From positions 12,970-76,969 of the IMG/VR virus record IMGVR_UViG_3300028591_000176: a stretch of DNA of 64,000 bases. One strand, given 5' to 3'. Both the position numbers and the translations under genes were made by a program. This stretch comes from a virus (taxonomy: Duplodnaviria; Caudoviricetes). The notes under the pieces were generated by a model. That model ran no database searches. It saw nothing but the letters and a program-made list of their open reading frames with translations, and had not been told where the DNA came from. This document shows, in pieces, positions 20,985 through 40,968 of this stretch (the stretch's first letter is position 1; every line of letters begins with the position of its first letter).

Positions 20985-21368
20985 ATGGGGTGGATGGAAT
21001 TTATATTATCAATATCAACGCTTCTGCTTGGCACGGGATGGTTGTTCACTTATCGCGCCTATCGTAGAAAGGCAAATGGTGAGGCCACACAAGCAGAAGC
21101 GGACGGATGGAAATCACAACAGGAGGTGTATCAAACAACAATAAAAGACCTCAAAGAGTCTTGCGAATACATCCGTAATGACAGGAATCTTCTTAGGGAA
21201 GAGAACACAAAGCTGCGTGCCGAAAATGACATGCTGCGTGCAAAGATTAACAAGTTTGAGGACATAATTGCCGAGCTACGCGAAAAAGTGGCAAGGCAAG
21301 GCCGTCAGCTAGATGCAATTACTGGTAAACGCAAAAAGGAACAAAATGCAGATATTGAAAAAAGGTAG
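20985..21368 (+). CDS. Membrane-anchored coiled-coil lysis-cassette protein (holin-like)
   Basis: N-terminal TM ILSISTLLLGTGWLF plus coiled coil; directly upstream of amidase. Confidence 0.5.
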   Translation: MGWMEFILSISTLLLGTGWLFTYRAYRRKANGEATQAEADGWKSQQEVYQTTIKDLKESCEYIRNDRNLLREENTKLRAENDMLRAKINKFEDIIAELREKVARQGRQLDAITGKRKKEQNADIEKR

Positions 21369-21969
21369 CCGTGGCGAAGACGTAAAGAAGTTGCAGTTTG
21401 CGCTCAATCTTTTTGCCGATGGAATCTTTGGCGAACTCACGGAAGAGGGTGTTCGTACGTTCCAACGTGAGAACGGTCTTAAAGAGGATGGTATCGTGGG
21501 TGAAAAGACTTGGGATAAGATATTCAACAGACCCGCTGGAACATCTTACCCAAAGTCACGTCGTACAATAAAAGAAATTATTGTGCATTGCAGCGCGACA
21601 CCAGAAGGCAAGGACTTTACCGTTTCTGACATTACGAATTGGCACAAGGCGCGTGGTTTCACCACGATAGGCTATCACTACGTAGTGTATCGTGACGGCA
21701 GCGTTCATAAAGGGCGCAATGTAAACATTAGCGGTGCGCACTGCACGGGGCACAATGCACATTCAATTGGCATTTGCTACATAGGTGGGTGTGCCGCTGA
21801 TGGCAAAACCGCAAAAGATACGCGCACAAACGCGCAGAGAGCCGCCCTAGAGATTACTTTACGCAAGCTGCGTACACTTTATCCAACGGCAAAGATTTAT
21901 GGGCACAGGGACTTTGCAAATAAGGAATGCCCTAGCTTTGATGCAACAAAGGAATATCGGTCGATATGA
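21346..21969 (+). CDS. Endolysin: peptidoglycan-binding domain + N-acetylmuramoyl-L-alanine amidase (T7 lysozyme-like)
   Basis: DGIFGELT/DGIVGEKT; IIVHCSAT, IGYHY, GAHCTGHN, SIGICYIGG, HRDFANKECPSF. Confidence 0.92.
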   Translation: MQILKKGSRGEDVKKLQFALNLFADGIFGELTEEGVRTFQRENGLKEDGIVGEKTWDKIFNRPAGTSYPKSRRTIKEIIVHCSATPEGKDFTVSDITNWHKARGFTTIGYHYVVYRDGSVHKGRNVNISGAHCTGHNAHSIGICYIGGCAADGKTAKDTRTNAQRAALEITLRKLRTLYPTAKIYGHRDFANKECPSFDATKEYRSI

Positions 21970-22418
21970 TGGGCGCAGAAGAATACAAGAAGATAAAAGA
22001 CGAAGGCGAGAAATATCGCCTTGGGTGTGGCACTATGATGTTCATCATCATTGCCATGTGCTTTTTGCTTTCTTCTTGCGCCACAAAATCAAAGATAGAA
22101 TATGTTGACAGGGAAGTTGTAAAGTACGTACACTCCGTGCAACACGACACATTAATAAATAATGTCCATGACAGCATCTATCATACAATATTCCAAAAAG
22201 GCGATACTGTCTATGATACCAAGTATGTGGAGAAGACGGTATATAAGGACAGGATTGTTCACCATACCGACACGGTGTTGCGCGACTCGATACACAAAGA
22301 GATAAAAGAAGTGACCGTAGTAAAGAAAGAGACACCCAAATGGTGTTATCTATCGCTGCTATGCGCTCCTTTCTTGATTTTTATATATAAAATTAAAAAT
22401 AAGATATGGAAAAAATAA
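21966..22418 (+). CDS. Lipoprotein, spanin-like
   Basis: Lipobox FLLSSC, DT/DS repeats, C-terminal hydrophobic segment; after endolysin. Confidence 0.55.
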   Translation: MMGAEEYKKIKDEGEKYRLGCGTMMFIIIAMCFLLSSCATKSKIEYVDREVVKYVHSVQHDTLINNVHDSIYHTIFQKGDTVYDTKYVEKTVYKDRIVHHTDTVLRDSIHKEIKEVTVVKKETPKWCYLSLLCAPFLIFIYKIKNKIWKK

Positions 22419-23019: not shown

Positions 23020-26000
23020 ATGGATATAAGTAAGATACAAATCAACAACGTAAACTACAATCTAAAAGACGCAAGTGCAATAGCAAGCGGCATTTACGAC
23101 TCTTCTAGCCAAAAGATTGTGTTTAAGAACAAAGACAACGTGGTCGTTTGTCAGATTGATGCTACACCGTTTATTGTGGATGGCATGGTTAGCAATGTAG
23201 CAGTATCCAATGGAAACCTTGTTATCACGTTTAATACAGACGCAGGGAAGTCGCCGATTAGCATTCCGCTGACTGATATATTTAATCCAGCTGAATACTA
23301 CACGAAGATAGGCTATTTTGTATGCGACACAGCCGCAAATACAGCAGCAAAGACGATAAATGCGGCAGGTTTTGTGCTTTCGACTGGGGGTAGTATTAAG
23401 ATAAAAATGACAAATGACAATACTGCTAATAATGCCACTCTGAACATTAATAGCACTGGTGCAAAACCGCTTTACTACGCTGGATTGAGAGCTTCTTCCG
23501 ATAACACTTGGGAATCAGGAGAGACCATCGAAGTTTACTATGACGGAACTAATTACATGGCCAATAATGTAGCAGGCGGAGGTGGCGATGGCGTTTTTGA
23601 TGTTAGCGCTAAAACTGGCGATACCTATGAAAGTCTTAGCGCAGCACTGACTGCAATGGATGCTCTTCCTTCTGCTTATAAGAAAGGCGGAATGAGCATT
23701 AAATACATACAGAGTTCTGACAATAACTCTGTATATGTGCAGTATAGATTAATGACTCAGAACTTTACTACTGATACTTCCAAGTGGCAGGGCGTGGATG
23801 ATAAGCCTACTAATGGGAGTGTGAATCTTGTGCAGAGTGGTGGTGTGGCTGAATCTACAGGAAGACTTGTCAGGCATTATACAATAAATAGTGGCAGCAC
23901 TCATTCATCGCAAGCTGATAAGATTGACGTAGACATCAAGACTGGGGAATTGTTCTTTGTCATGGTTAGTGTATCTGGTACTGTGTATGCAAATCCAGGT
24001 ACTTCAGATGTTAATCTAGGCAATGTAAGTGCTAACAGATATTACAGGTTTACTGCTGCGCAGGACATAACAAGTATAGGTGTTTACAACCCTCAGCAGT
24101 CAAGTACTGTGACGGTTACTTTTGAGGTGCTTGTTGGTCTTGCTGCTATTGCCTATAACACTACTATCAAGGACACTGAGCCTATTGTCGGCAGCAATAA
24201 CTTTATTACTAGCGGCGGTGTTGCTAAAATGAAGATGCACATGCCTTATATTTCCTTTGTCGGGATAGGAGATACTTTTAAACCTGGAGATGTGTTTAGT
24301 GACCTGCTACCTGGACATAAAGTCAGGATTTACATGGGTAGTACATCATGGAACTATGGTACTACTAACACAGTTGCGTTTGTATTTAGAATAATACTTA
24401 CGATTAATGGTGCTGAACAATATCCTCTTGGTAATAATTACTATTATAGGTCAGGGTTGGTACTTCCTGAGTATTTTGATGTTGACATACCCTCGACATT
24501 TGTTAATGGCAGGGATAGCCTGCATATTGGTGGCAGGGCTGCACAGGGTGTTGAAGTAGGAGCTATTATAGAGGACACGACATACTATAATACTTCTATC
24601 GTGCCTGTACAAAACAATATATCTGCACTGCAGGGTAAAACTACCAATTGCATTAATGACGCTGTGCATACTATACCAAGCTGGGCTTCTAACAAGTCTT
24701 ATGCTCTTGGTGACTTCGTGGTATATGACAATAATTTCTACTCTTGTCATGTTGCTCATACGAGTGGAAGTACATTTGAGTCGGCAAATTTCTTCAAGTG
24801 GAACCTGCGGGATATTATAGAGAAGGATGCCCCTATGGCTCAGATATGTAAGAAGACATCATCATCAAACTATTATCTGCATAGGATTGGCAGCTATGCT
24901 ATTCCCTTTAATTTCCACAAGAACCATACTTACAGGTTTATTATAGAGGGTCTAAATGGTGAAAGGCAGGTGGCTCAGATTCAGGCCAGGACAAAGTATG
25001 ACCAGAGTAGCGATGGAGGTATTGTCACCTTGCTTAGCAACAAGGGAGACGGCACTTATGATGTCAAGTATACGAATGATGTAGAGGGAATATTTATCAA
25101 TGTTGTTCTGTCTGCCCAGTCTAATACTGAAATCCCCGCTGTCTGTCCTACTATTTTCATGTATGACATAACTGCTGTTGCTGATGTCGTAAGCAGTGTC
25201 CAATCCATTGAAGCAGACATGCCTGATGTCATGGAGCAGGTAGACAAGACTATTGATGTATATACTTTTATTGGTAATATACCGACACAAGGTGGTACTG
25301 CCACTGTGAATCGTGATATTACAGTAGAACAGGGTAAGCGATATGCTGTCAAGCTGACTGATGTTGTGTGGACTGCAGATAATTTGTCTACTGCATACAA
25401 TGTGTTCTACATTGTGGACATGAATGGTACTACACCAGCAAGTTCGGCTATACCTGGCACTACCTTTAACAGACCTTCTGATGTTCCATCTGACGGTATA
25501 ATCAGGTTTGTCCCAGGTACAAATAAGGTAAGGATATGTTATAGGGGAGATGTTGGTTCCTCTATGGTCGCTGCTACTGTCAAACGTGGAAGCCTGACAA
25601 ATACTGTTGACGATATAGATGATGCTGTAGATGATATTGAAAAGGATATGCAGTATGTTTCAAATCAAGTAGGCGGCTCTATTGATGTATATGATTTCAA
25701 AGGTAACATAGTACAAAGTAGCTATGAACCAACTGTAGACCATGATATTACAGTAGAACAAGGTAAGGAGTATGTGGTTATGCTTGCTATCAATACATGG
25801 ACAACGGATAACATGAAGTCAAGTACAAATGTGTTCTATATCCGAAACATGAATGGCACAACTCAAGGCTCTGCTATTGCAGGTACTACTTTCAACAGAC
25901 CTTCAAACATTCCTTCTGATGGCATCAGGTTTGTTCCTGGTACTAACAAAATAAGGATGTGTTTCAGGGGTGACGTCGGTTCTTTGGTGACTGCCAATAC

Positions 26001-27063
26001 TATTAAATGTGGCCCTATTGCAAGTTTTGTGAATGCTGCCAGTAATCAGGATGTGGTTTCTCTTAATGGCGGTTTGCAGGTGCTGACTAATAAGTTCAAG
26101 AATCTGTCGAAGAGAAGGGGTTCTAATGGTGATTCCAATGCTGGCAATAAGATTCTGAACTTGCTTTATTTCTCAGACTTGCATAATGGTCAGTCTAGCT
26201 TGCAGCGTCTGCTTGGCTTTGCAGATACTTTTGACACTTATATTGATGATGTGGTACATGGCGGTGATATGGTGAGTAACCTCTTTAGTGATACTAACCC
26301 ATTCGCTGTCCTTGGAGGCAGTAAAGTGCTTACTGTCATAGGCAATCATGACAACTGGCTTGGCAGTAGCAGCATGGCTCCTCAGCTGGATGTGTTCAAC
26401 AAGTTTATAAAGCCTTACTATCAGGCATGGGGTGTTACTGTTCCAAGTGATGCTGAGACTGAGGGTTACTGCTATTGGTATAAGGACTATGACGAAAGCA
26501 AGCTGAGACTTATTGGTCTTGACTGCATGAATTGGGACAGCACTCAGGCTGCATGGCTTAGTGATGTACTTGATGATGCTTATGCTGACGGCTATTCTGT
26601 GATTATTCTAAATCACTACTGTCCTCACACTTCCTTCAAGTCTGACAGGCAGTGTACTTTCTCTACTGTCTATGTAAATGGCTGCAGTAATTTCCTTAAC
26701 TCTGAGGCAGCAGGTATTGTGCACTCCAAGATTGAGGGAGGATTGAAGTTTGTGGTATGGCTCTTTGGCCATGAACACAAGGACTTCTTTGGTAATATTG
26801 AGACTTATCCTGAGCAGTATGCTCTTGCCATTGATAAGACCTCGCCTACTTCTGACTGGACATCTGCTAATCCTGACTGGGAAAGAGACTCTATAAGAGT
26901 GTCTACGGGCAGGTCTCAGGATGCCTTTGATGTTATCTCTGTTGACACTACTGCAGGTATTCTTACTGTTATGAGGATTGGCAATAATACAGATAAGTTT
27001 ATGCGCCAGAAGAACTATCTGACATTTGACTATGTAAATCATAAGATTGTTGGAAACTCTTAG
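23020..27063 (+). CDS. Tail fiber/spike with CBM-like module, duplicated beta domain and C-terminal calcineurin-like metallophosphoesterase
   Basis: WASNKSYALGDFVVYDNNFYSCHVAHTS; two ~115-aa repeats; FSDLH, HGGDMV, IGNHDN, LNHY, FGHEH. Confidence 0.75.
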   Translation: MDISKIQINNVNYNLKDASAIASGIYDSSSQKIVFKNKDNVVVCQIDATPFIVDGMVSNVAVSNGNLVITFNTDAGKSPISIPLTDIFNPAEYYTKIGYFVCDTAANTAAKTINAAGFVLSTGGSIKIKMTNDNTANNATLNINSTGAKPLYYAGLRASSDNTWESGETIEVYYDGTNYMANNVAGGGGDGVFDVSAKTGDTYESLSAALTAMDALPSAYKKGGMSIKYIQSSDNNSVYVQYRLMTQNFTTDTSKWQGVDDKPTNGSVNLVQSGGVAESTGRLVRHYTINSGSTHSSQADKIDVDIKTGELFFVMVSVSGTVYANPGTSDVNLGNVSANRYYRFTAAQDITSIGVYNPQQSSTVTVTFEVLVGLAAIAYNTTIKDTEPIVGSNNFITSGGVAKMKMHMPYISFVGIGDTFKPGDVFSDLLPGHKVRIYMGSTSWNYGTTNTVAFVFRIILTINGAEQYPLGNNYYYRSGLVLPEYFDVDIPSTFVNGRDSLHIGGRAAQGVEVGAIIEDTTYYNTSIVPVQNNISALQGKTTNCINDAVHTIPSWASNKSYALGDFVVYDNNFYSCHVAHTSGSTFESANFFKWNLRDIIEKDAPMAQICKKTSSSNYYLHRIGSYAIPFNFHKNHTYRFIIEGLNGERQVAQIQARTKYDQSSDGGIVTLLSNKGDGTYDVKYTNDVEGIFINVVLSAQSNTEIPAVCPTIFMYDITAVADVVSSVQSIEADMPDVMEQVDKTIDVYTFIGNIPTQGGTATVNRDITVEQGKRYAVKLTDVVWTADNLSTAYNVFYIVDMNGTTPASSAIPGTTFNRPSDVPSDGIIRFVPGTNKVRICYRGDVGSSMVAATVKRGSLTNTVDDIDDAVDDIEKDMQYVSNQVGGSIDVYDFKGNIVQSSYEPTVDHDITVEQGKEYVVMLAINTWTTDNMKSSTNVFYIRNMNGTTQGSAIAGTTFNRPSNIPSDGIRFVPGTNKIRMCFRGDVGSLVTANTIKCGPIASFVNAASNQDVVSLNGGLQVLTNKFKNLSKRRGSNGDSNAGNKILNLLYFSDLHNGQSSLQRLLGFADTFDTYIDDVVHGGDMVSNLFSDTNPFAVLGGSKVLTVIGNHDNWLGSSSMAPQLDVFNKFIKPYYQAWGVTVPSDAETEGYCYWYKDYDESKLRLIGLDCMNWDSTQAAWLSDVLDDAYADGYSVIILNHYCPHTSFKSDRQCTFSTVYVNGCSNFLNSEAAGIVHSKIEGGLKFVVWLFGHEHKDFFGNIETYPEQYALAIDKTSPTSDWTSANPDWERDSIRVSTGRSQDAFDVISVDTTAGILTVMRIGNNTDKFMRQKNYLTFDYVNHKIVGNS

Positions 27064-33531: not shown

Positions 33532-33876
33532 ATGAAAATAGTGTATAATAACATCTTTCCAGCCCGTGGCTATATAGCAATGACTATATGGCCGTGGGTT
33601 TTTGTCCGCAAAAAAGACAAGTATACGGACGTTGTGGATAATCACGAAAAGATTCATGGCGAGCAGCAAAAGGAAATGCTATTGGTGCTTTACTATTTGC
33701 TATACGTTGTTGAATATATCATACGTTTCCTAATATGCTTTGACCACAAGACGGCATATCGCAGCATAAGCTTTGAGCGTGAAGCGAGGATAAACCAATC
33801 GGATATGGCATACGTCTATAACAGGAAACATTATGCTTGGGCAAAATATCTATTTACTAAAAACAAAAAGATATGA
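33532..33876 (+). CDS. Small membrane zincin-like protein
   Basis: NHEKIH (HExxH) and ISFEREA, hydrophobic helix LLVLYYLLYVVEYII. Confidence 0.55.
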   Translation: MKIVYNNIFPARGYIAMTIWPWVFVRKKDKYTDVVDNHEKIHGEQQKEMLLVLYYLLYVVEYIIRFLICFDHKTAYRSISFEREARINQSDMAYVYNRKHYAWAKYLFTKNKKI

Positions 33877-37029: not shown

Positions 37030-37062
37030 GTTGTAACGTGCTAACTTTTAGTGCGTTACAAC
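37030..37062 (+). terminator. Hairpin 27 nt after the variable-region gene (terminator and/or DGR target hairpin)
   Basis: GTTGTAACGTGCTAA-CTT-TTAGTGCGTTACAAC followed by TTTGTTTA. Confidence 0.6.
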
Positions 37063-37113
37063 TTTGTTTATGGACTTGAAAAAGTCCTCTATTGTTTAAT
37101 CCTTTTTAGGTTG

Positions 37114-37121
37114 TATCTTTG
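37114..37121 (+). promoter_or_regulatory. Promoter (-7 box) of the six-gene operon
   Basis: TATCTTTG followed by CA; 5'-UTR hairpin ACGACAA...TTGTCGT at 37124-37149. Confidence 0.7.
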
Positions 37122-37183
37122 CAACGACAAATGATGCGCATCTTGTCGTAAACAGAGTAATAACAACTTTAAAAAGGATTTTT

Positions 37184-38122
37184 ATGAGTGAGATTTATCA
37201 ATTGCCAGACACTTCTGGCAACAACAACGGTGGCCTAGGCAACATTCCTTTCTCTATACCCATTGGTGGTTTTGGAATGGGCGGCGGCTTGTTTGGCGGC
37301 AACTACGGAATGAATGGGATTGCTGACCTATTTGGACTGGCTATCATTGCTTCAATGTTCGGCTGGAACAATGGCGGATTTGGCAATGGCGGCTTTGGAG
37401 GAAATGGTTCAGGCGCAGCTTTTTTGGCTAATCAGCTCTCGAACGACTCTGGGCGTGAACTCATTATGAACGCTATCACCAATCAGGGCGAGGCATCACG
37501 TACGGCCATTCAGACATTAAGCACTATGCTTGGTCAGGATTTCAATCTTGTCAATGGTGCTGTGACTAATGTGCAGAATGCATTGCAGACTCTTGCTTTG
37601 CAGCAGGCTGTGAGCGTGCCTCAGATTATCAACTCTATCCAGTCGGGTGATGCAAGCATCATCAGTAGCTTCGAGAAGTGTTGTTGCGAGAACAAGCTCC
37701 TTGTCACACAACAGGGCTACGAGTCGCAGATTGCAACCTTGAACCAAACCAACCAGCTTGGTTCGCAGGCAGACCGCAACACCAACGCTTTGCTTAATGC
37801 CATCAACGCCCAGACCGTTGCCATGAACGACCAGTTCTGTGCAGCCCGCGAGCGCGACATGCAGGCAAAGATTGATACGCAGTCCGACATCATCACTCAG
37901 CTGCGTGGTCGGATTGACAATGCCAACCAGACGGCTCAGATTACGGGATATGTCAATTCCCTGATTGCTCCCTTGCAGGCAAAGGTTACGGAGATTGCCG
38001 ACAAGCAGCTTCCTACTGTTCCTGTTCAGTGGCCGCAGATTCAGGCCGTGAACACCACGCCTTACATGGGTGGTTGGAATGGTTTCTACGGCAACGGCTT
38101 TGGTAATAACATCGTGTTTTAA
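37184..38122 (+). CDS. Gly/Phe/Asn-rich, Cys-Cys-Cys coiled-coil protein of unknown function
   Basis: 312 aa; GFG/NGG-rich termini, hydrophobic LFGLAIIASMFGW, EKCCCEN, long Q/N-rich heptads. Confidence 0.85.
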   Translation: MSEIYQLPDTSGNNNGGLGNIPFSIPIGGFGMGGGLFGGNYGMNGIADLFGLAIIASMFGWNNGGFGNGGFGGNGSGAAFLANQLSNDSGRELIMNAITNQGEASRTAIQTLSTMLGQDFNLVNGAVTNVQNALQTLALQQAVSVPQIINSIQSGDASIISSFEKCCCENKLLVTQQGYESQIATLNQTNQLGSQADRNTNALLNAINAQTVAMNDQFCAARERDMQAKIDTQSDIITQLRGRIDNANQTAQITGYVNSLIAPLQAKVTEIADKQLPTVPVQWPQIQAVNTTPYMGGWNGFYGNGFGNNIVF

Positions 38123-38146
38123 GTAGGCGAAAGGAGGGTACGAAGT

Positions 38147-38482
38147 ATGTGTTTTAACAACATTACAACGAACGCGGGTGGTATCGCCTACCTACCTTCA
38201 ACCAATGTTACCGTAGGTACTGATGCAGTTGATATTGCACTAGGCTTCCGTCGTATTCAGCCAGTAGGCTATTTCACCGTTCGCCTGACCGATGCGATAC
38301 CAGCAGGCACTACGACAACGCTGCCTATTACGCTTACGCTCAATGGAACGACACGCGCCCTGACTCTGTTTGACGGCACACCTGTTACCGTTGCGGAGCT
38401 TATCGGTGGCACGGGAGCATTCCTTGTGTTCAACAATCGTTTCGATGGCATTCTTCAACTGATGTCACGTACTACGGTATAA
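38147..38482 (+). CDS. Small beta-sandwich-like protein of unknown function
   Basis: 111 aa, Thr/Val-rich alternating pattern. Confidence 0.8.
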   Translation: MCFNNITTNAGGIAYLPSTNVTVGTDAVDIALGFRRIQPVGYFTVRLTDAIPAGTTTTLPITLTLNGTTRALTLFDGTPVTVAELIGGTGAFLVFNNRFDGILQLMSRTTV

Positions 38483-38512
38483 GCAAGAGTAATTAACAAG
38501 TAAATAGTAACA

Positions 38513-39037
38513 ATGATGGATTTTAATAGTCTTGGGAACGGCAACCCTTTTTATATCCTTAGACAAGGAGAAAAGCCGATTTTAGAGGTAGGCACGGTAA
38601 AGTCAAAGACACAGCCACATGTCAAGTTTCCAACGCAAACGCCCAACCTTATGACTGGATTGCAGACACAGCAGGTTATTGATGTGACGGCAACCATCAA
38701 TGGTAAGGATGAGACTTTTATGGATATTCCAATAGGAGTTGAAATTGCGCAAAAAGGAAACGTGACATTCAGCGGTAGTCGTGAAGCGATGTTGCAGGCG
38801 GTAGATTCAATGCTACAGACTAGCAAGAAAGCCATCGACCAAGTGCCATATCATAAGACGGTTATTGCAGAAAGCGAGAAGATGATGGAGGTGCTTAACC
38901 CGCAATATGCGGAAAACAAGAAACAGGCACGCACCATCAGCGACCTTGAACGCCGACAGGCTGACACTGACAAGAAGCTTGATGCAATATTGGGTATCCT
39001 GCAAAAGCTGGATTCGCCCGCCACAAGTACCGTTTAG
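38513..39037 (+). CDS. Beta-rich N-terminus plus coiled-coil protein of unknown function
   Basis: 174 aa; C-terminal heptads ARTISDLERRQADTDKKLDAILGIL. Confidence 0.8.
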   Translation: MMDFNSLGNGNPFYILRQGEKPILEVGTVKSKTQPHVKFPTQTPNLMTGLQTQQVIDVTATINGKDETFMDIPIGVEIAQKGNVTFSGSREAMLQAVDSMLQTSKKAIDQVPYHKTVIAESEKMMEVLNPQYAENKKQARTISDLERRQADTDKKLDAILGILQKLDSPATSTV

Positions 39038-39066
39038 TCCATTAAACTATAGAAAGGAACAATCAA

Positions 39067-39309
39067 ATGGGATGGATTTTTATAGACAAGGATGACGAGC
39101 AGAGCCAGCAGAAGATGCGGCAGCAGATGCGTCGTAACATGCGTGGCGGTGGCTATAGTAGCGGTGGCTATAGCGGTGATGGTAATTATCGTGATGGCTA
39201 TCGTCAGGGCTACAAGCACGGCTGGGAGGACAAGTCCGACGAATGGATGGATAACGATGAGGAAATGGATTCCCGTCGCCGTCGTGACAGCCGTGGAAGA
39301 TACATGTAA
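39067..39309 (+). CDS. Low-complexity Arg/Gly/Tyr-rich small protein
   Basis: 80 aa; RGGGYSSGGYSGDGNYRDGYRQGYKHG...RRRRDSRGRYM. Confidence 0.75.
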   Translation: MGWIFIDKDDEQSQQKMRQQMRRNMRGGGYSSGGYSGDGNYRDGYRQGYKHGWEDKSDEWMDNDEEMDSRRRRDSRGRYM

Positions 39310-39394
39310 AAATGGAACAGAAAGCGAAGGGATTGGTGGATATACTCTGCCAATCCTTTCCAATGTTTAAAACATTAAAATAAATTGGAAAGTT

Positions 39395-39793
39395 ATGAAG
39401 CAATATATATCCGAAGGAAGGGCAATGTACGAAGACCAAAATCATGGTCTTTTCAGCAAGAGACTTGCAGAGTGGGCTATTGGTAAGATGCGTATGCAGG
39501 ACGCATCCAATGGCGCGTTGAAAAAGATAGCTGCAAGAAAGCTTGATGATGTCAAGGAAGTGTTGAAAGAGAACAAGGTCGAGCTGCCAGAAGAGTTTTG
39601 CTATACGGCATGGTATTTGTTCAACATGGCTATTGCCGACTACCCGAAGACATTAAAGACTGACGAGCAGCGTGCAATGTTCGTTGAGGAAACGTTGTGC
39701 GACCCTGATGGTATGCCAGAGAATGTTCTTGACTGCTTTGTCGTTAAGATGTGCAATGCTGGCGTTCCGATATATTGGGAGTCATTTTTGTAA
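39395..39793 (+). CDS. Helical hypothetical protein
   Basis: 132-aa ORF in operon. Confidence 0.8.
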   Translation: MKQYISEGRAMYEDQNHGLFSKRLAEWAIGKMRMQDASNGALKKIAARKLDDVKEVLKENKVELPEEFCYTAWYLFNMAIADYPKTLKTDEQRAMFVEETLCDPDGMPENVLDCFVVKMCNAGVPIYWESFL

Positions 39794-39813
39794 TAGCAAT
39801 ACTCTTTAGGCTT

Positions 39814-40203
39814 ATGAAAACAGCGTACATAGACGTTGACGGTTACTGGGGTATAGCAATATGCTATGATTACGATGTTTCTAACCACGAAGATGAACAC
39901 ACTCTATGGGGGTATATGCGTTCATTTGGTATGAAAGAAAGAAGTATCAATAAAGCGTTAAACATTCTCTCGAATTACAACACAGGAATGTGCGTATCAA
40001 ACAATGATGTGCGGATGAGTGGCATATTTATAAGCAAGGCAACAAGTCCGAGTGAATGGTGGTCATCGTGCTTGCATGAACTTAGACATTCAGCACAAGC
40101 AATCATTGATTACTACGGCGCTGATTGGAATGAAGATGATGCTTATCTAACAGGCTTTCTTACTAAACGTGCTGTTGAGATATTGGGAGAACCTTGCAGA
40201 TAG
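39814..40203 (+). CDS. Zincin-like metallopeptidase (HExxH)
   Basis: CLHELRHSAQA followed by NEDDAYLTG; ATG at 39814 is in frame with ORF 39751-40203. Confidence 0.65.
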   Translation: MKTAYIDVDGYWGIAICYDYDVSNHEDEHTLWGYMRSFGMKERSINKALNILSNYNTGMCVSNNDVRMSGIFISKATSPSEWWSSCLHELRHSAQAIIDYYGADWNEDDAYLTGFLTKRAVEILGEPCR

Positions 40204-40230
40204 AGCCTCACTGTTGAGGTTCTATCTTTT
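40199..40230 (+). terminator. Intrinsic terminator closing the six-gene operon
   Basis: GATAGAGCCTCA-CTGT-TGAGGTTCTATC-TTTT. Confidence 0.8.
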
Positions 40231-40827
40231 CAAGATACCAAAGAACCCCTTTTCCGTAATGACTTTTACTTCTCGTTGCTGCACTAATGCTCCCGCAATT
40301 TATGCCTGTTTCTTTTGACGCTTCCAAAATAGAATCAAAAGATTTAATAAAGTTTTTGTTTAAGTCATACATATAAACAGCATGAGGGCTATTTACTGTT
40401 TTGTTTTTGACAAGCGTTGCGTGCCTCTTAATCTTTGTTTGTTCTAACCTTATTCTGTTTAATTGTCTTTCTCTCGTTATGGGGTTATTGCTGTTTTCCT
40501 TTGGAGTACACCACCTAAGATTACTTGATTTGTTGTTTTTGGGATTTCCATCAATGTGGTCAACTTGAATATCATTGTCTCCTTTCTCACAAAAACACAT
40601 TGCAACAAGTCTATGAACTGCAATTTGTTTTCTTGTGTTATTTCGACAAAGAAGCACAAAAGGATAACCTTTTGGGTCACAAGCAAGTGCAAGAACCCTT
40701 TCTTTCGCATGTACATGTGTTCCTTTTTTAGAATAATACCATCTATCCAAAGATTTTACACGCCCAAGGTTACTAACTTGATAAAAGCCTTCCCATCCTT
40801 TGATGTCTTTCCAAATTTCTTGTTCCA
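40208..40827 (-). CDS. NUMOD4-HNH homing endonuclease with C-terminal NUMOD1-like HTH
   Basis: EIWKDIKGWEGFYQVSNLGRVKS, HRLVA, VDHIDGNPKNN..NLRWCT; probable start MEQEIW at 40827. Confidence 0.9.
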
Positions 40828-40835
40828 TTACTATT

Positions 40836-40968
40836 AAAAACGGAAATGCCCCGAAAGAGCCACCACGCATCTAACGGGACAAATCCATTTAGTCGTATAT
40901 ATTCGCTTAGTGGTGGATAAGCGTTTATTTCTTTTGCAAAGATACAAAGAAAGTTTGGAACTTCCAAA
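40836..40968 (-). promoter_or_regulatory. Promoter plus kissing-loop leader of HNH gene
   Basis: TTTG/TATCTTTG (40965-40968/40937-40944); hairpin loops CCACCAC and GTGGTGG are complementary. Confidence 0.6.

What the first reader, a model, noticed from the sequence alone, without database searches (positions are those of the whole stretch)
37114..40230. Self-contained six-gene operon of unknown function: Cys-Cys-Cys coiled-coil protein through to a HExxH metallopeptidase
Seen: the block has its own TATCTTTG promoter and 5' hairpin, is preceded by a hairpin and closed by a 12-bp terminator, so it is transcribed independently of both the tail operon and the early region. It encodes (i) a 312-aa protein with GFG/NGG low-complexity ends, a hydrophobic segment (LFGLAIIASMFGW), a CCC motif and long Q/N heptads, (ii) a 111-aa beta protein, (iii) a 174-aa beta + coiled-coil protein, (iv) an 80-aa RGG/GY low-complexity protein, (v) a 132-aa helical protein and (vi) a zincin with HELRH and a downstream E. 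Knowledge: none match morphogenesis, lysis or replication families; I recognize similar CCC-protein gene strings from gut phages but know no assigned function. Inference: a multi-component, moron-like system, for example a membrane-inserting or fibrous oligomer matured or controlled by the protease (superinfection exclusion, anti-defense or host-surface modification).
Basis: partly seen in the sequence, partly recalled or inferred. Interest (0 to 1): 0.82.

Follow-up and report, generated by a model that had tools for sequence, protein, structure and literature searches.

The report
Conserved six-gene late cassette of gut phages
This is a real, self-contained six-gene unit that travels in the same order through very different gut phages, including crAss-like ones; its function is still unknown, but here it is shown to be made late in infection, to work as one physical assembly, and not to belong to any described lysis, virion, defence or replication family.

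Summary
Six co-oriented genes (37184-40203) sit behind their own Bacteroides-type promoter box, between flanking hairpins, with a strong hairpin splitting them 4+2. In 50 of 50 dereplicated lineages with enough downstream DNA the order g1-g2-g3-g4-g5-g6 is kept, and the genes co-diverge. Carriers have contigs of about 35-150 kb and include crAss-like phages, a cultured B. uniformis phage, cultured Parabacteroides phages (reduced form) and prophages of Alistipes and Parabacteroides.

New here:
- The promoter box about 55-79 nt upstream of g1 is conserved (32/53 lineages against 6% of controls).
- In TAG- and TGA-recoded phages the cassette uses the reassigned stop heavily, so it can only be translated late. 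This argues against expression in lysogens or an early role.
- Natural fusions link g5 to g1's N-terminus, to a g4-like tail and to g6.
- g2-g6 have no signal peptides.
- A variant sits in a Firmicutes-type prophage, so an outer-membrane role is excluded.

No protein matches a characterised family beyond g6's invariant HExxH...E. My best guess (about 30%) is a late, cytoplasm-assembled, membrane-active coiled-coil complex under zincin control, acting around lysis. A virion accessory is the main rival. This scan has met the cassette before on other DNA (e1-3892275, e1-3219415).

The parts
37030..37062 (+). Terminator-like hairpin (15-bp stem, then T-run) that ends the upstream tail-fibre transcription unit
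37072..37087 (+). Second small hairpin with a T-rich tail
37114..37121 (+). Bacteroides-type -7 promoter box TATCTTTG, 70 nt upstream of the g1 ATG
   Evidence: The same box lies at -55 to -79 in 32 of 53 lineages, against 5.8% of random windows.
37124..37149 (+). Hairpin in the 5' leader (7-bp stem ACGACAA/TTGTCGT)
37184..38122 (+). g1, 312 aa. It has Gly/aromatic low-complexity ends, a short uncharged hydrophobic segment (about residues 46-61), a small helical domain (78-153), a conserved C-C-C triplet (166-168) and a single long helix (157-274).
   Evidence: (phrog_16490)
38147..38482 (+). g2, 111 aa, an all-beta sandwich and the best-conserved member; most relatives have a Cys at position 2-4
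   Evidence: (phrog_31654)
38513..39037 (+). g3, 174 aa, an N-terminal beta part plus a C-terminal helix; the most heavily recoded member in TAG-recoded carriers
   Evidence: (phrog_28898)
39067..39309 (+). g4, 80 aa, an acidic and Arg/Gly/Tyr-rich low-complexity protein that ends in a basic ...RDSRGRY-x tail
   Evidence: The slot is filled by a protein of this type in nearly all lineages.
39326..39360 (+). Strong internal hairpin between g4 and g5 that splits the block 4+2
   Evidence: It agrees with the stronger co-divergence inside g1-g2 and inside g5-g6.
39395..39793 (+). g5, 132 aa, DUF7841; the fusion hub of the cassette
   Evidence: PF25223, 2.6e-10; phrog_38431
39814..40203 (+). g6, 129 aa from the ATG (frame open from GTG 39751); a minimal zincin with invariant H-E-x-x-H and a Glu 14 residues downstream
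40198..40227 (.). 13-bp hairpin plus T-run shared with the convergent HNH endonuclease gene; closes the block

Best explanation
The block is an autonomous late transcription unit carried as accessory cargo at the far end of the late arm of many gut phages.

Shown: it is transcribed from its own host-type promoter. In recoded lineages it can only be translated after the phage's code switch. Its products are linked to one another by natural gene fusions.

Inferred: the six proteins assemble in the cytoplasm into one complex built on an elongated g1 coiled-coil oligomer. That oligomer would be stapled or metal-bridged at the Cys triplet, and its short Gly/Trp-flanked hydrophobic segment would associate with the cytoplasmic membrane from inside. 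g2 and g3 dock on the rod. g5 is the hub that ties the g4 tail and the g6 zincin to g1's N-terminal domain. g6 cleaves a component to mature or release the assembly.

I place its action in the last phase of infection, around lysis: tuning the timing or efficiency of envelope breakdown, or protecting the lysing cell or its progeny. It is an add-on to, not a replacement for, the holin-endolysin-spanin set.
For: Unit and autonomy:
- The gene order is fixed in 50/50 lineages.
- All gene pairs co-diverge (Mantel r 0.26-0.67, p = 0.001).
- The promoter box is conserved at -55 to -79, and hairpins flank the block.

Late expression:
- The block is always co-oriented with, and at the end of, the structural and lysis arm.
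- In TAG-recoded carriers g3 encodes 47-73% of its Gln with TAG in six of seven loci (22% in cr272_1).
- In TGA-recoded carriers g5 encodes 4 of 4 Trp with TGA, g6 2 of 3 and g1 3 of 6.
- Borges et al. report such recoding for late structural and lysis genes.

One assembly:
- P0270 fuses g1 residues 1-135 to g5 and is seen on 13 contigs.
- L038 fuses g5 and g6.
- Six recoded loci fuse a g5-like domain to a g4-like tail, and the PD691P3 phage fuses a charged segment to g5.

Cytoplasmic side: g2, g3, g5 and g6 have no signal peptide or transmembrane segment, and g5 is fused after g1's hydrophobic segment.

Link to lysis: at least one lysis-type gene (multi-TM holin-like, DUF5675 or M15-like endolysin, lipobox plus C-terminal TM spanin-like, DUF6808) lies within four genes in 24 of 54 lineages. 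This also holds in the integrated copies, the cultured Parabacteroides phages, cr272_1 and the Firmicutes-type prophage.

g1 is elongated: AlphaFold2 gives one 118-residue helix with pLDDT above 84 over residues 180-270.
Against: - No experiment and no homology ties any member to lysis or to the membrane.
- In the window itself the lysis genes (20985-22418) lie 15 kb away. Adjacency elsewhere may only reflect that both sit at the end of late arms.
- g1's hydrophobic stretch is about 15 residues, reaches the 19-residue transmembrane threshold in only 16 of 66 relatives, and has almost no flanking Lys/Arg.
- Complete holin-endolysin-spanin sets exist beside the cassette, so no missing lysis function calls for it.
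- The close relative crAss001 lacks the cassette.
Confidence: 0.3

Rival explanations
1. Virion accessory. g1 forms a coiled-coil fibre or needle with sticky Gly/aromatic ends, g2 and g3 are its adaptor or knob, and g6 is a maturation protease. The assembly is either mounted on the particle (adhesion or stability in the gut) or packaged and ejected to help cross the cytoplasmic membrane.
For: - Late expression and a position next to tail-fibre genes.
- A long coiled coil with conserved cysteines.
- The best fold match of g2 by two methods is a domain of a Pseudomonas phage Pa193 baseplate/tail-fibre chain, with other fibre and spike domains below it (Foldseek E 0.069; VIA Z 4.9, rmsd 3.7 over 91 residues).
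- Carriers span hosts of different phyla within one habitat, which suits a particle property better than a host-specific one.
Against: - The cassette moves between phages with unrelated particle architectures (contigs of about 35-150 kb, crAss-like and not), which is hard for a part that must dock on a specific capsid or tail.
- It is absent from crAss001, whose particle has been solved.
- g2 and g6 are dispensable in some lineages.
- The fold match is below the level that shows a shared fold (notes).
- g2 shows no relation to the crAss001 head fibre gp21.
Confidence: 0.25
2. A conflict system made late: superinfection exclusion, a phage-borne defence against competing phages, or a counter-defence, with the zincin as effector or switch.
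For: - Accessory and patchy distribution, its own promoter and terminators, and a position at a prophage end next to host genes.
- Small g6-like zincins also occur singly in the early regions of relatives.
- Zincins are common in conflict systems (Iyer et al. 2017).
Against: - No PADLOC family matches any of the six proteins.
- Recoded stops block translation in a lysogen and early in infection.
- A fixed order of six genes over such deep divergence is unusual for fast-turnover conflict genes.
- g6 reaches no polyvalent-protein peptidase model.
Confidence: 0.15
3. Cytoplasmic scaffold or condensate. g1 (Gly/Phe/Tyr low-complexity ends plus a coiled-coil rod) and g4 (RG/GY-rich) form a filamentous or gel-like matrix that organises late assembly, and g6 dissolves or remodels it.
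For: - The composition of g1's ends and of g4 is conserved while their sequence is not.
- There are no export signals.
- The function would be independent of particle type and of host envelope.
Against: This is purely compositional reasoning. No such system is known in phages of this size. The conserved hydrophobic segment and the cysteine triplet are not explained by it.
Confidence: 0.1
4. Canonical outer-membrane disruption: g1 as an Rz-like i-spanin, or a unimolecular spanin, of Bacteroidales phages.
For: - An N-terminal hydrophobic segment followed by a coiled coil with cysteines resembles Rz.
- Weak profile hits to class I fusion proteins (E 0.003-0.1).
- Frequent neighbourhood with lysis genes.
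Against: - No lipoprotein partner and no signal peptides in the block.
- Separate spanin-like genes occur in the window (21966-22418) and beside the cassette elsewhere.
- g5, a protein without export signals, is found fused after g1's hydrophobic segment.
- A variant sits in a prophage with a Firmicutes-type holin and no outer-membrane host.
- g1 alone occurs in viruses labelled as archaeal.
Confidence: 0.03

Closest known systems
Phage lysis cassettes and their accessory regulators (holin, endolysin, spanin; T4 RI/RIII-type lysis control)
   Same: Late expression; frequent neighbourhood in the genome; one member with a hydrophobic segment followed by a coiled coil; strong use of reassigned stops, as reported for lysis genes in recoded phages.
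   Different: No sequence or fold relation to any holin, endolysin, spanin or antiholin. Complete lysis sets occur beside it. Five of the six proteins are soluble, without export signals. The cassette is 15 kb from the lysis genes in this window.
Small zincin-like metallopeptidases of mobile elements (MPTase of polyvalent proteins, DUF6782, ImmA/IrrE-like, minimal gluzincins)
   Same: g6 has the invariant H-E-x-x-H helix and a downstream Glu, is small, and is phage-borne. The homologue in phage C3_41T2LP is annotated 'PolyVal metallopeptidase'.
   Different: None of 43 relatives reaches any Pfam peptidase model. g6 is a stand-alone 129-aa protein in a fixed six-gene context, not a domain of a giant multidomain protein. 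Its substrate is unknown.
Class I viral fusion proteins and Rz-type spanins (hydrophobic peptide plus heptad repeats)
   Same: The architecture of g1: an uncharged Gly-rich hydrophobic stretch followed by Gln/Asn-rich heptads with a cysteine cluster. This explains the GenBank labels 'spike protein/glycoprotein' and 'outer capsid protein/viral fiber'.
   Different: Only compositional hits (best E 0.003). Foldseek finds no match. There is no second anchor, no export signal and no lipoprotein partner.
Phage morons (promoter-gene-terminator units such as lambda bor and lom)
   Same: A self-contained transcription unit at the end of the late arm, patchy among relatives, and also found at prophage ends.
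   Different: Six genes in a fixed order. It occurs in apparently virulent crAss-like phages. In recoded prophages it cannot be translated under the host's code, so it is not a lysogenic-conversion unit there.

Membership tests
Zincin metallopeptidase superfamily (g6) | H-E-x-x-H motif with a third zinc ligand (Glu) on a following helix | tested here: met
   H88, E89, H92 and E107 are invariant in 43 relatives.
Zincin metallopeptidase superfamily (g6) | Zincin fold (three-stranded sheet plus the two active-site helices) | not tested
The profile against PDB sequences gave only myroilysin at E 0.25.
MPTase of polyvalent proteins (PF18818) and DUF6782 | A score above the family's Pfam threshold | tested here: not met
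   None of 43 members matches any peptidase model at E <= 0.01. The window's g6 hits DUF6782 at E 0.083, 12.6 bits against a cut-off of 27.
MPTase of polyvalent proteins (PF18818) and DUF6782 | Occurs as a domain of a large multidomain (polyvalent) protein | tested here: not met
   g6 is a stand-alone protein of 128-190 aa in all lineages. The only fusion seen is with g5 (277 aa, L038).
Two-component or unimolecular spanins | i-spanin: an N-terminal transmembrane anchor with a periplasmic coiled coil | tested here: inconclusive
   The hydrophobic stretch is about 15 residues, 16 of 66 relatives reach the 19-residue threshold, and there are almost no flanking Lys/Arg. The coiled coil is present.
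Two-component or unimolecular spanins | An outer-membrane lipoprotein partner or an N-terminal lipobox | tested here: not met
   There is no signal peptide or lipobox in g1-g6. Separate lipobox plus C-terminal TM genes exist in the window (21966-22418) and beside the cassette in other carriers.
Two-component or unimolecular spanins | Restricted to phages of hosts with an outer membrane | tested here: not met
   A variant cassette lies in a prophage with a Phage_holin_4_1 holin on a Clostridiales-labelled contig next to host genes.
Known anti-phage defence systems (PADLOC-DB 2.0) | Any member matches a defence-system model | tested here: not met
   Zero families for all six proteins at E <= 0.1.
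Moron / lysogenic-conversion unit | Its own promoter and terminator, separate from neighbouring operons | tested here: met
Moron / lysogenic-conversion unit | Expressed from the repressed prophage | tested here: not met
   This is indirect. In recoded prophages and phages the genes contain many in-frame reassigned stops and cannot be translated under the host's code.
Phage fibre, spike or baseplate domains (g2) | Shared fold with a solved fibre or baseplate domain | tested here: inconclusive
   The best match, 9b45_2 residues 240-339, scores Foldseek E 0.069 and TM 0.43, and VIA Z 4.9. That is below the level that shows a common fold.
Class I viral fusion proteins (g1) | Significant sequence or fold similarity to a fusion subunit | tested here: inconclusive
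   Profile hits to S2 HR1 and HA2 at E 0.003-0.1 only. No Foldseek match at E <= 0.001.
DUF7841 (PF25223) (g5) | A score above the Pfam gathering threshold | tested here: met
   41 bits against a cut-off of 25.2, E 2.6e-10. The family has no known function and no paper mentions it.

The most novel reading that the evidence does not exclude
Gut phages of very different lineages, with hosts that may span phyla, share a portable late-expressed machine of a kind not yet described. It would be a cysteine-stapled coiled-coil scaffold with keratin-like or FG-like Gly/aromatic ends (g1), an RG/GY-rich partner (g4), two beta-rich adaptors (g2, g3) and a dedicated hub-plus-protease pair (g5, g6). It would build a filament, gel or membrane-attached platform inside the infected cell (for example an assembly or release compartment), independent of particle architecture and of the host's envelope type.
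Probability: 0.12. Interest if true: 0.9.

Novelty: categorically new. Interest (0 to 1): 0.7.

Why it matters
The g1 family alone has more than 6,800 clusters at 90% identity and 481 at 50% in public metagenomes. It occurs in crAss-like phages, the most abundant viruses of the human gut, as well as in unrelated Bacteroidales phages and prophages. A six-gene unit kept in a fixed order across such distances must give a strong advantage, yet none of its proteins has a described function and no paper mentions it.

This work narrows the problem to a late, cytoplasm-assembled, protease-linked complex. It also names culturable systems in which the cassette can be knocked out and its products located: phage C3_41T2LP on B. 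uniformis, the PD691/PD482 phages on P. distasonis, and prophages of Alistipes putredinis DSM 17216 and Parabacteroides segnis.

In addition, it corrects misleading database labels such as 'spike glycoprotein', 'outer capsid protein/viral fiber' and 'cellobiose PTS IIA'.

Tried and rejected
Searches that found nothing useful:
- Pfam, PHROGs, NCBIfam and PADLOC scans of all six proteins gave only families of unknown function.
- Profile searches of g1, g2, g3, g5 and g6 against PDB sequences gave nothing significant.
- Foldseek of the g1 model against the PDB found no match.
- ESM Atlas returned only unnamed viral clusters for g1, nothing usable for g3, and only g2's own family by shape.
- g2 compared with the crAss001 head fibre gp21 showed no relation.
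- A search for longer proteins containing g2 found none; for g5 it found only the g1N-g5 fusion. P0270 is not a g5-g6 fusion.
- tblastn of g2 against the phage records gave no match.
- Literature searches found no description of the cassette or of the carrier phages, and no virion proteomics of any carrier.

Tests that were uninformative:
- Codon usage of late against early genes differs too little in this phage to say anything.
- My first count of stops inside HMM alignments was noisy at gene ends; only multi-stop, single-type cases were used.
- The diverse g1 alignment could not seed a locus search.

- Complex prediction (three copies of g1 residues 40-300) did not complete and was then withdrawn, so no verdict exists.
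- Fold search in the viral library was not accepted.

Readings rejected:
- Spanin reading: see the rivals.
- Main lysis module: the window has its own lysis genes at 20985-22418.
- The small HTH-like gene seen upstream of g1 in 25 lineages belongs to four unrelated families and has no relative in this window, so I do not count it as part of the cassette here.


Full report
**What is in the window.** The window is most of a 76,969-bp virus record rated 97% complete. It is a tailed phage. It has a terminase (17676) and portal (19448), and then its own lysis genes: a TM plus coiled-coil protein at 20985-21368, an amidase at 21313-21969, and a gene with a lipobox and a C-terminal TM segment at 21966-22418. 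Very large tail proteins and fibre genes follow up to 37002.

The family alignment places the g6 start at ATG 39814, not at the upstream GTG.

The regulatory features are as follows:
- TATCTTTG lies 70 nt before g1, after two hairpins with T-rich tails, and is followed by a leader hairpin.
- A 13-bp stem plus T-run closes the block against a convergent NUMOD4/HNH endonuclease gene.
- A strong hairpin (about -24 kcal/mol) lies between g4 and g5.

**The genes travel together.** I fetched 240 loci from the viral contig collection, using three g1 proteins that are 30-100% identical to the window's, and searched them with iterated HMMs of g2-g6.
- Raw co-occurrence: g2 in 232 loci, g3 in 228, g5 in 221 and g6 in 213.
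- After dereplication to 54 g1 lineages, every one of the 50 lineages with at least 3.6 kb downstream has g1, g2, g3, a small gene, and then g5 (with g6 where present), all on one strand.
- Exceptions: g6 was not detected in two lineages (L086, L090), g5 and g6 are fused in one (L038), and genes appear fragmented in three (L075, L216, L048). At least the first two of those three are stop-codon-recoded phages.
- The small gene was recognised by sequence in only 50 loci. However, almost all lineages have a protein of one type in that slot: 65-130 aa, acidic plus Arg/Gly/Tyr-rich, ending in a basic ...GRY-type tail.
- Pairwise divergences of g1, g2, g3, g5 and g6 are all correlated across 44 lineages (Mantel r 0.26-0.67, p = 0.001). 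The highest values are for g1-g2 (0.67) and g5-g6 (0.62). This fits two sub-modules divided by the internal hairpin.

**Who carries it.**
- Carrier contigs range from about 35 to 155 kb.
- Annotated carriers include crAss-like phages of two families (cr272_1, Suoliviridae; cr116_1, Steigviridae) and the cultured B. uniformis phage C3_41T2LP.
- crAss001, in the same subfamily as cr116_1, has no trace of it.
- A genome scan found integrated copies in Alistipes putredinis DSM 17216, three Parabacteroides species, a Rikenellaceae isolate and Muribaculaceae.
- Cultured lytic P. distasonis phages (PD691P3 and relatives) carry a reduced form: a 226-aa g1-like protein with the Gly-rich hydrophobic stretch and the C-C-C-E and N-F-C-A motifs, then g3, then a charged segment fused to g5. 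They have neither g2 nor g6.
- g1 alone, with other neighbours, occurs in two viruses labelled as infecting Methanomassiliicoccales.

**Position and transcription.** The cassette is always the last unit, or nearly the last, of the late arm.
- In 24 of 54 lineages at least one lysis-type gene lies within four genes. These are multi-TM holin-like proteins, a DUF5675/Tlde1-like endolysin, an M15-like endolysin (my reading of its motifs), a lipobox plus C-terminal TM spanin-like protein, and DUF6808.
- The typical order in integrated copies is tail fibre, holin, endolysin, spanin-like or DUF6808, a small HTH-like gene, g1-g6, and then genes on the opposite strand.
- In the Parabacteroides phages the cassette comes before the holin. 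In this window it is 15 kb from the lysis genes. The firm rule is therefore 'end of the late arm', not 'next to lysis'.
- A TAnnTTTG box lies within 150 nt upstream of g1 in 32 of 53 lineages, against 5.8% of random windows, and clusters at -55 to -79. The dedicated promoter is thus a conserved property. Some misses come from ORF starts called too far upstream.
- The HTH-like genes found just upstream in 25 lineages belong to four families with no detectable relation to each other, and this window has none of them.

**Timing from recoded phages.** Several carriers reassign a stop codon.
- In cr272_1 the cassette genes carry in-frame TAG, like the neighbouring endolysin, terminase and portal genes.
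- Read with TAG as Gln, g3 encodes 47-73% of its glutamines with TAG in six of seven TAG-recoded loci (22% in cr272_1). That is among the highest values in each locus.
- In a TGA-recoded lineage g5 encodes all four of its tryptophans with TGA, g6 two of three and g1 three of six.
[quoted passage not shown] They also report that only a few families, mostly lysis genes, prefer the reassigned stop.
- It follows that the cassette cannot be translated before the code switch. This is indirect evidence, and it holds directly only for the recoded lineages. It argues against expression from a silent prophage and against an early role.

**Host envelope.** Locus L259 is a TAG-recoded prophage on a 140-kb contig labelled Clostridiales.
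- Its order is a DGR-type reverse transcriptase, a Phage_holin_4_1 holin, a 212-aa gene, the g5/g4 fusion, g1, g2 and g3.
- Host genes read in the standard code follow directly: a CNNM/CBS protein and two ABC ATPases.
- Together with the archaeal-labelled records, this rules out a role that needs an outer membrane. The host labels themselves were not verified.

**The proteins.**
- **g1.** It belongs to a very large family (more than 6,800 clusters at 90% identity, 481 at 50%). Conserved features are a short N-terminal motif, a hydrophobic stretch between Gly-rich runs, a helical domain, the Cys triplet, a later Cys, a Pro-rich motif and a Gly/aromatic tail that nearly always ends in an aromatic residue.
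  - AlphaFold2 gives a helix at 46-58, a small helical domain at 78-153 and one 118-residue helix at 157-274. Such a helix cannot stand alone, so g1 must oligomerise or pair with a partner (inference).
  - The hydrophobic stretch is about 15 residues, is rarely long enough for a classical transmembrane helix, and lacks flanking positive charges.
  - The only PDB hits are weak ones to the heptad regions of coronavirus S2 and influenza HA2. That explains the 'spike' and 'fiber' labels in GenBank, but it is a similarity in composition.
- **g2.** It folds with confidence into a beta sandwich. Its best match, a domain of a Pa193 baseplate/fibre chain, is weak.
- **g3, g5.** Neither has solved relatives.
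- **g6.** It keeps H-E-x-x-H and a Glu 14 residues later in all 43 relatives, but reaches no Pfam peptidase model.
- **Export signals.** g2, g3, g5 and g6 have no signal peptide or transmembrane segment.

**Fusions.** g5 is found fused to three other members:
- to the first 135 residues of g1 (P0270, seen on 13 contigs);
- to a g4-like tail (six recoded loci; and a charged segment in the PD phages);
- to g6 (L038).

This links the members physically and makes g5 the hub. g5 has no export signal and is fused after g1's hydrophobic segment. The part of g1 that follows that segment is therefore most likely on the cytoplasmic side (inference).

**Weighing the explanations.**
- The data fit a late, cytoplasm-assembled complex built on an elongated g1 oligomer with a protease sub-module.
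- Whether it acts at the inner face of the membrane around lysis (my preferred reading, about 0.3) or ends up on or in the particle (about 0.25) cannot be decided without proteomics.
- A late-acting conflict system (about 0.15) and a cytoplasmic scaffold or condensate (about 0.1) remain open.
- A spanin role is close to excluded.

**Relation to earlier notes and to the literature.**
- This scan had already flagged the same cassette in other genomes. Two earlier follow-ups (e1-3892275, e1-3219415) reached 'conserved cassette, function unknown, often beside lysis genes'. I confirmed those points independently.
- New here are the promoter conservation, the recoding-based timing argument, the fusion network, the absence of export signals, the reduced form in cultured Parabacteroides phages, and the variant in a host without an outer membrane.
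- I found no paper describing the cassette.

**Limits.**
- No expression or proteomic data could be brought in.
- Gene calls in the fetched loci are my own simple ORF calls.
- Lysis-type labels for families c0, c6, c20, c41 and c43 rest on hydropathy and motifs that I read by eye, not on family models.

Noticed in passing
window 33532-33876 (+): A second small HExxH protein (114 aa, motif HEKIH, with hydrophobic stretches) matches phrog_15610 'protease' at E 3.6e-34. It sits between the 2059-aa tail protein and the fibre genes and is unrelated to g6 by HMM.
   Followed up: partly
window 40208-40870 (-); L001 6015-6635: A NUMOD4/HNH_3/NUMOD1 homing endonuclease gene abuts the 3' end of the cassette here. 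In phage C3_41T2LP an HNH endonuclease sits directly upstream of g1, between the small HTH-like gene and the cassette. Homing endonucleases at the cassette borders might contribute to its spread.
   Followed up: no
window 20985-22418 (+): The phage's own lysis cassette lies between the portal and tail genes. It has a TM plus coiled-coil protein (holin or Rz-like by PHROGs), an amidase endolysin, and a 150-aa protein with a lipobox (LLSSC) and a C-terminal TM segment, which is the architecture of a unimolecular spanin.
   Followed up: partly
L005, L007, L013, L016, L033, L049, L052, L055, L062 (minus strand, 0.2-2 kb downstream of the cassette): Close relatives of this phage carry a second, stand-alone g6-like zincin (HExxH...E..YAY) on the opposite strand, in the early region. 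This window has no such paralogue. cr116_1 has a weak g6-like gene (VOG3488) just upstream of g1.
   Followed up: partly
L014 11069-11413, L058 11015-11383, L083 11051-11422; also L075, L076: A small (109-123 aa) protein family has a helical N-terminus and a hydrophobic/Gly segment very like g1's (D-L-F-A-L-G-I-I-G-S-M-F-G). In close relatives of this phage it sits directly after g6. It is absent from the window.
   Followed up: partly
L259 (CAJMAC010000001.1), L263, L271, L272, L274, L275; L216, L219, L220, L223: These are TAG-recoded and TGA-recoded carriers of the cassette. L259 is a recoded prophage with a DGR-type reverse transcriptase, integrated next to standard-code host genes on a Clostridiales-labelled contig. 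Contigs labelled Bacilli, Erysipelotrichaceae and Gastranaerophilaceae may be phage contigs mis-binned into MAGs.
   Followed up: partly
L245 (NC_134205.1), L246 (NC_092586.1): Two viruses labelled as infecting Methanomassiliicoccales encode a g1 homologue (phrog_16490) next to a tail protein or DGR reverse transcriptase, but none of g2-g6. Either g1 works with other partners there or the host assignment is wrong.
   Followed up: no
window 23020-27063 (+): The 1347-aa tail protein carries a CBM_5_12 module and a calcineurin-like metallophosphoesterase domain at its C-terminus (Pfam E 2.6e-9). Another first-stage note flagged the same thing.
   Followed up: no
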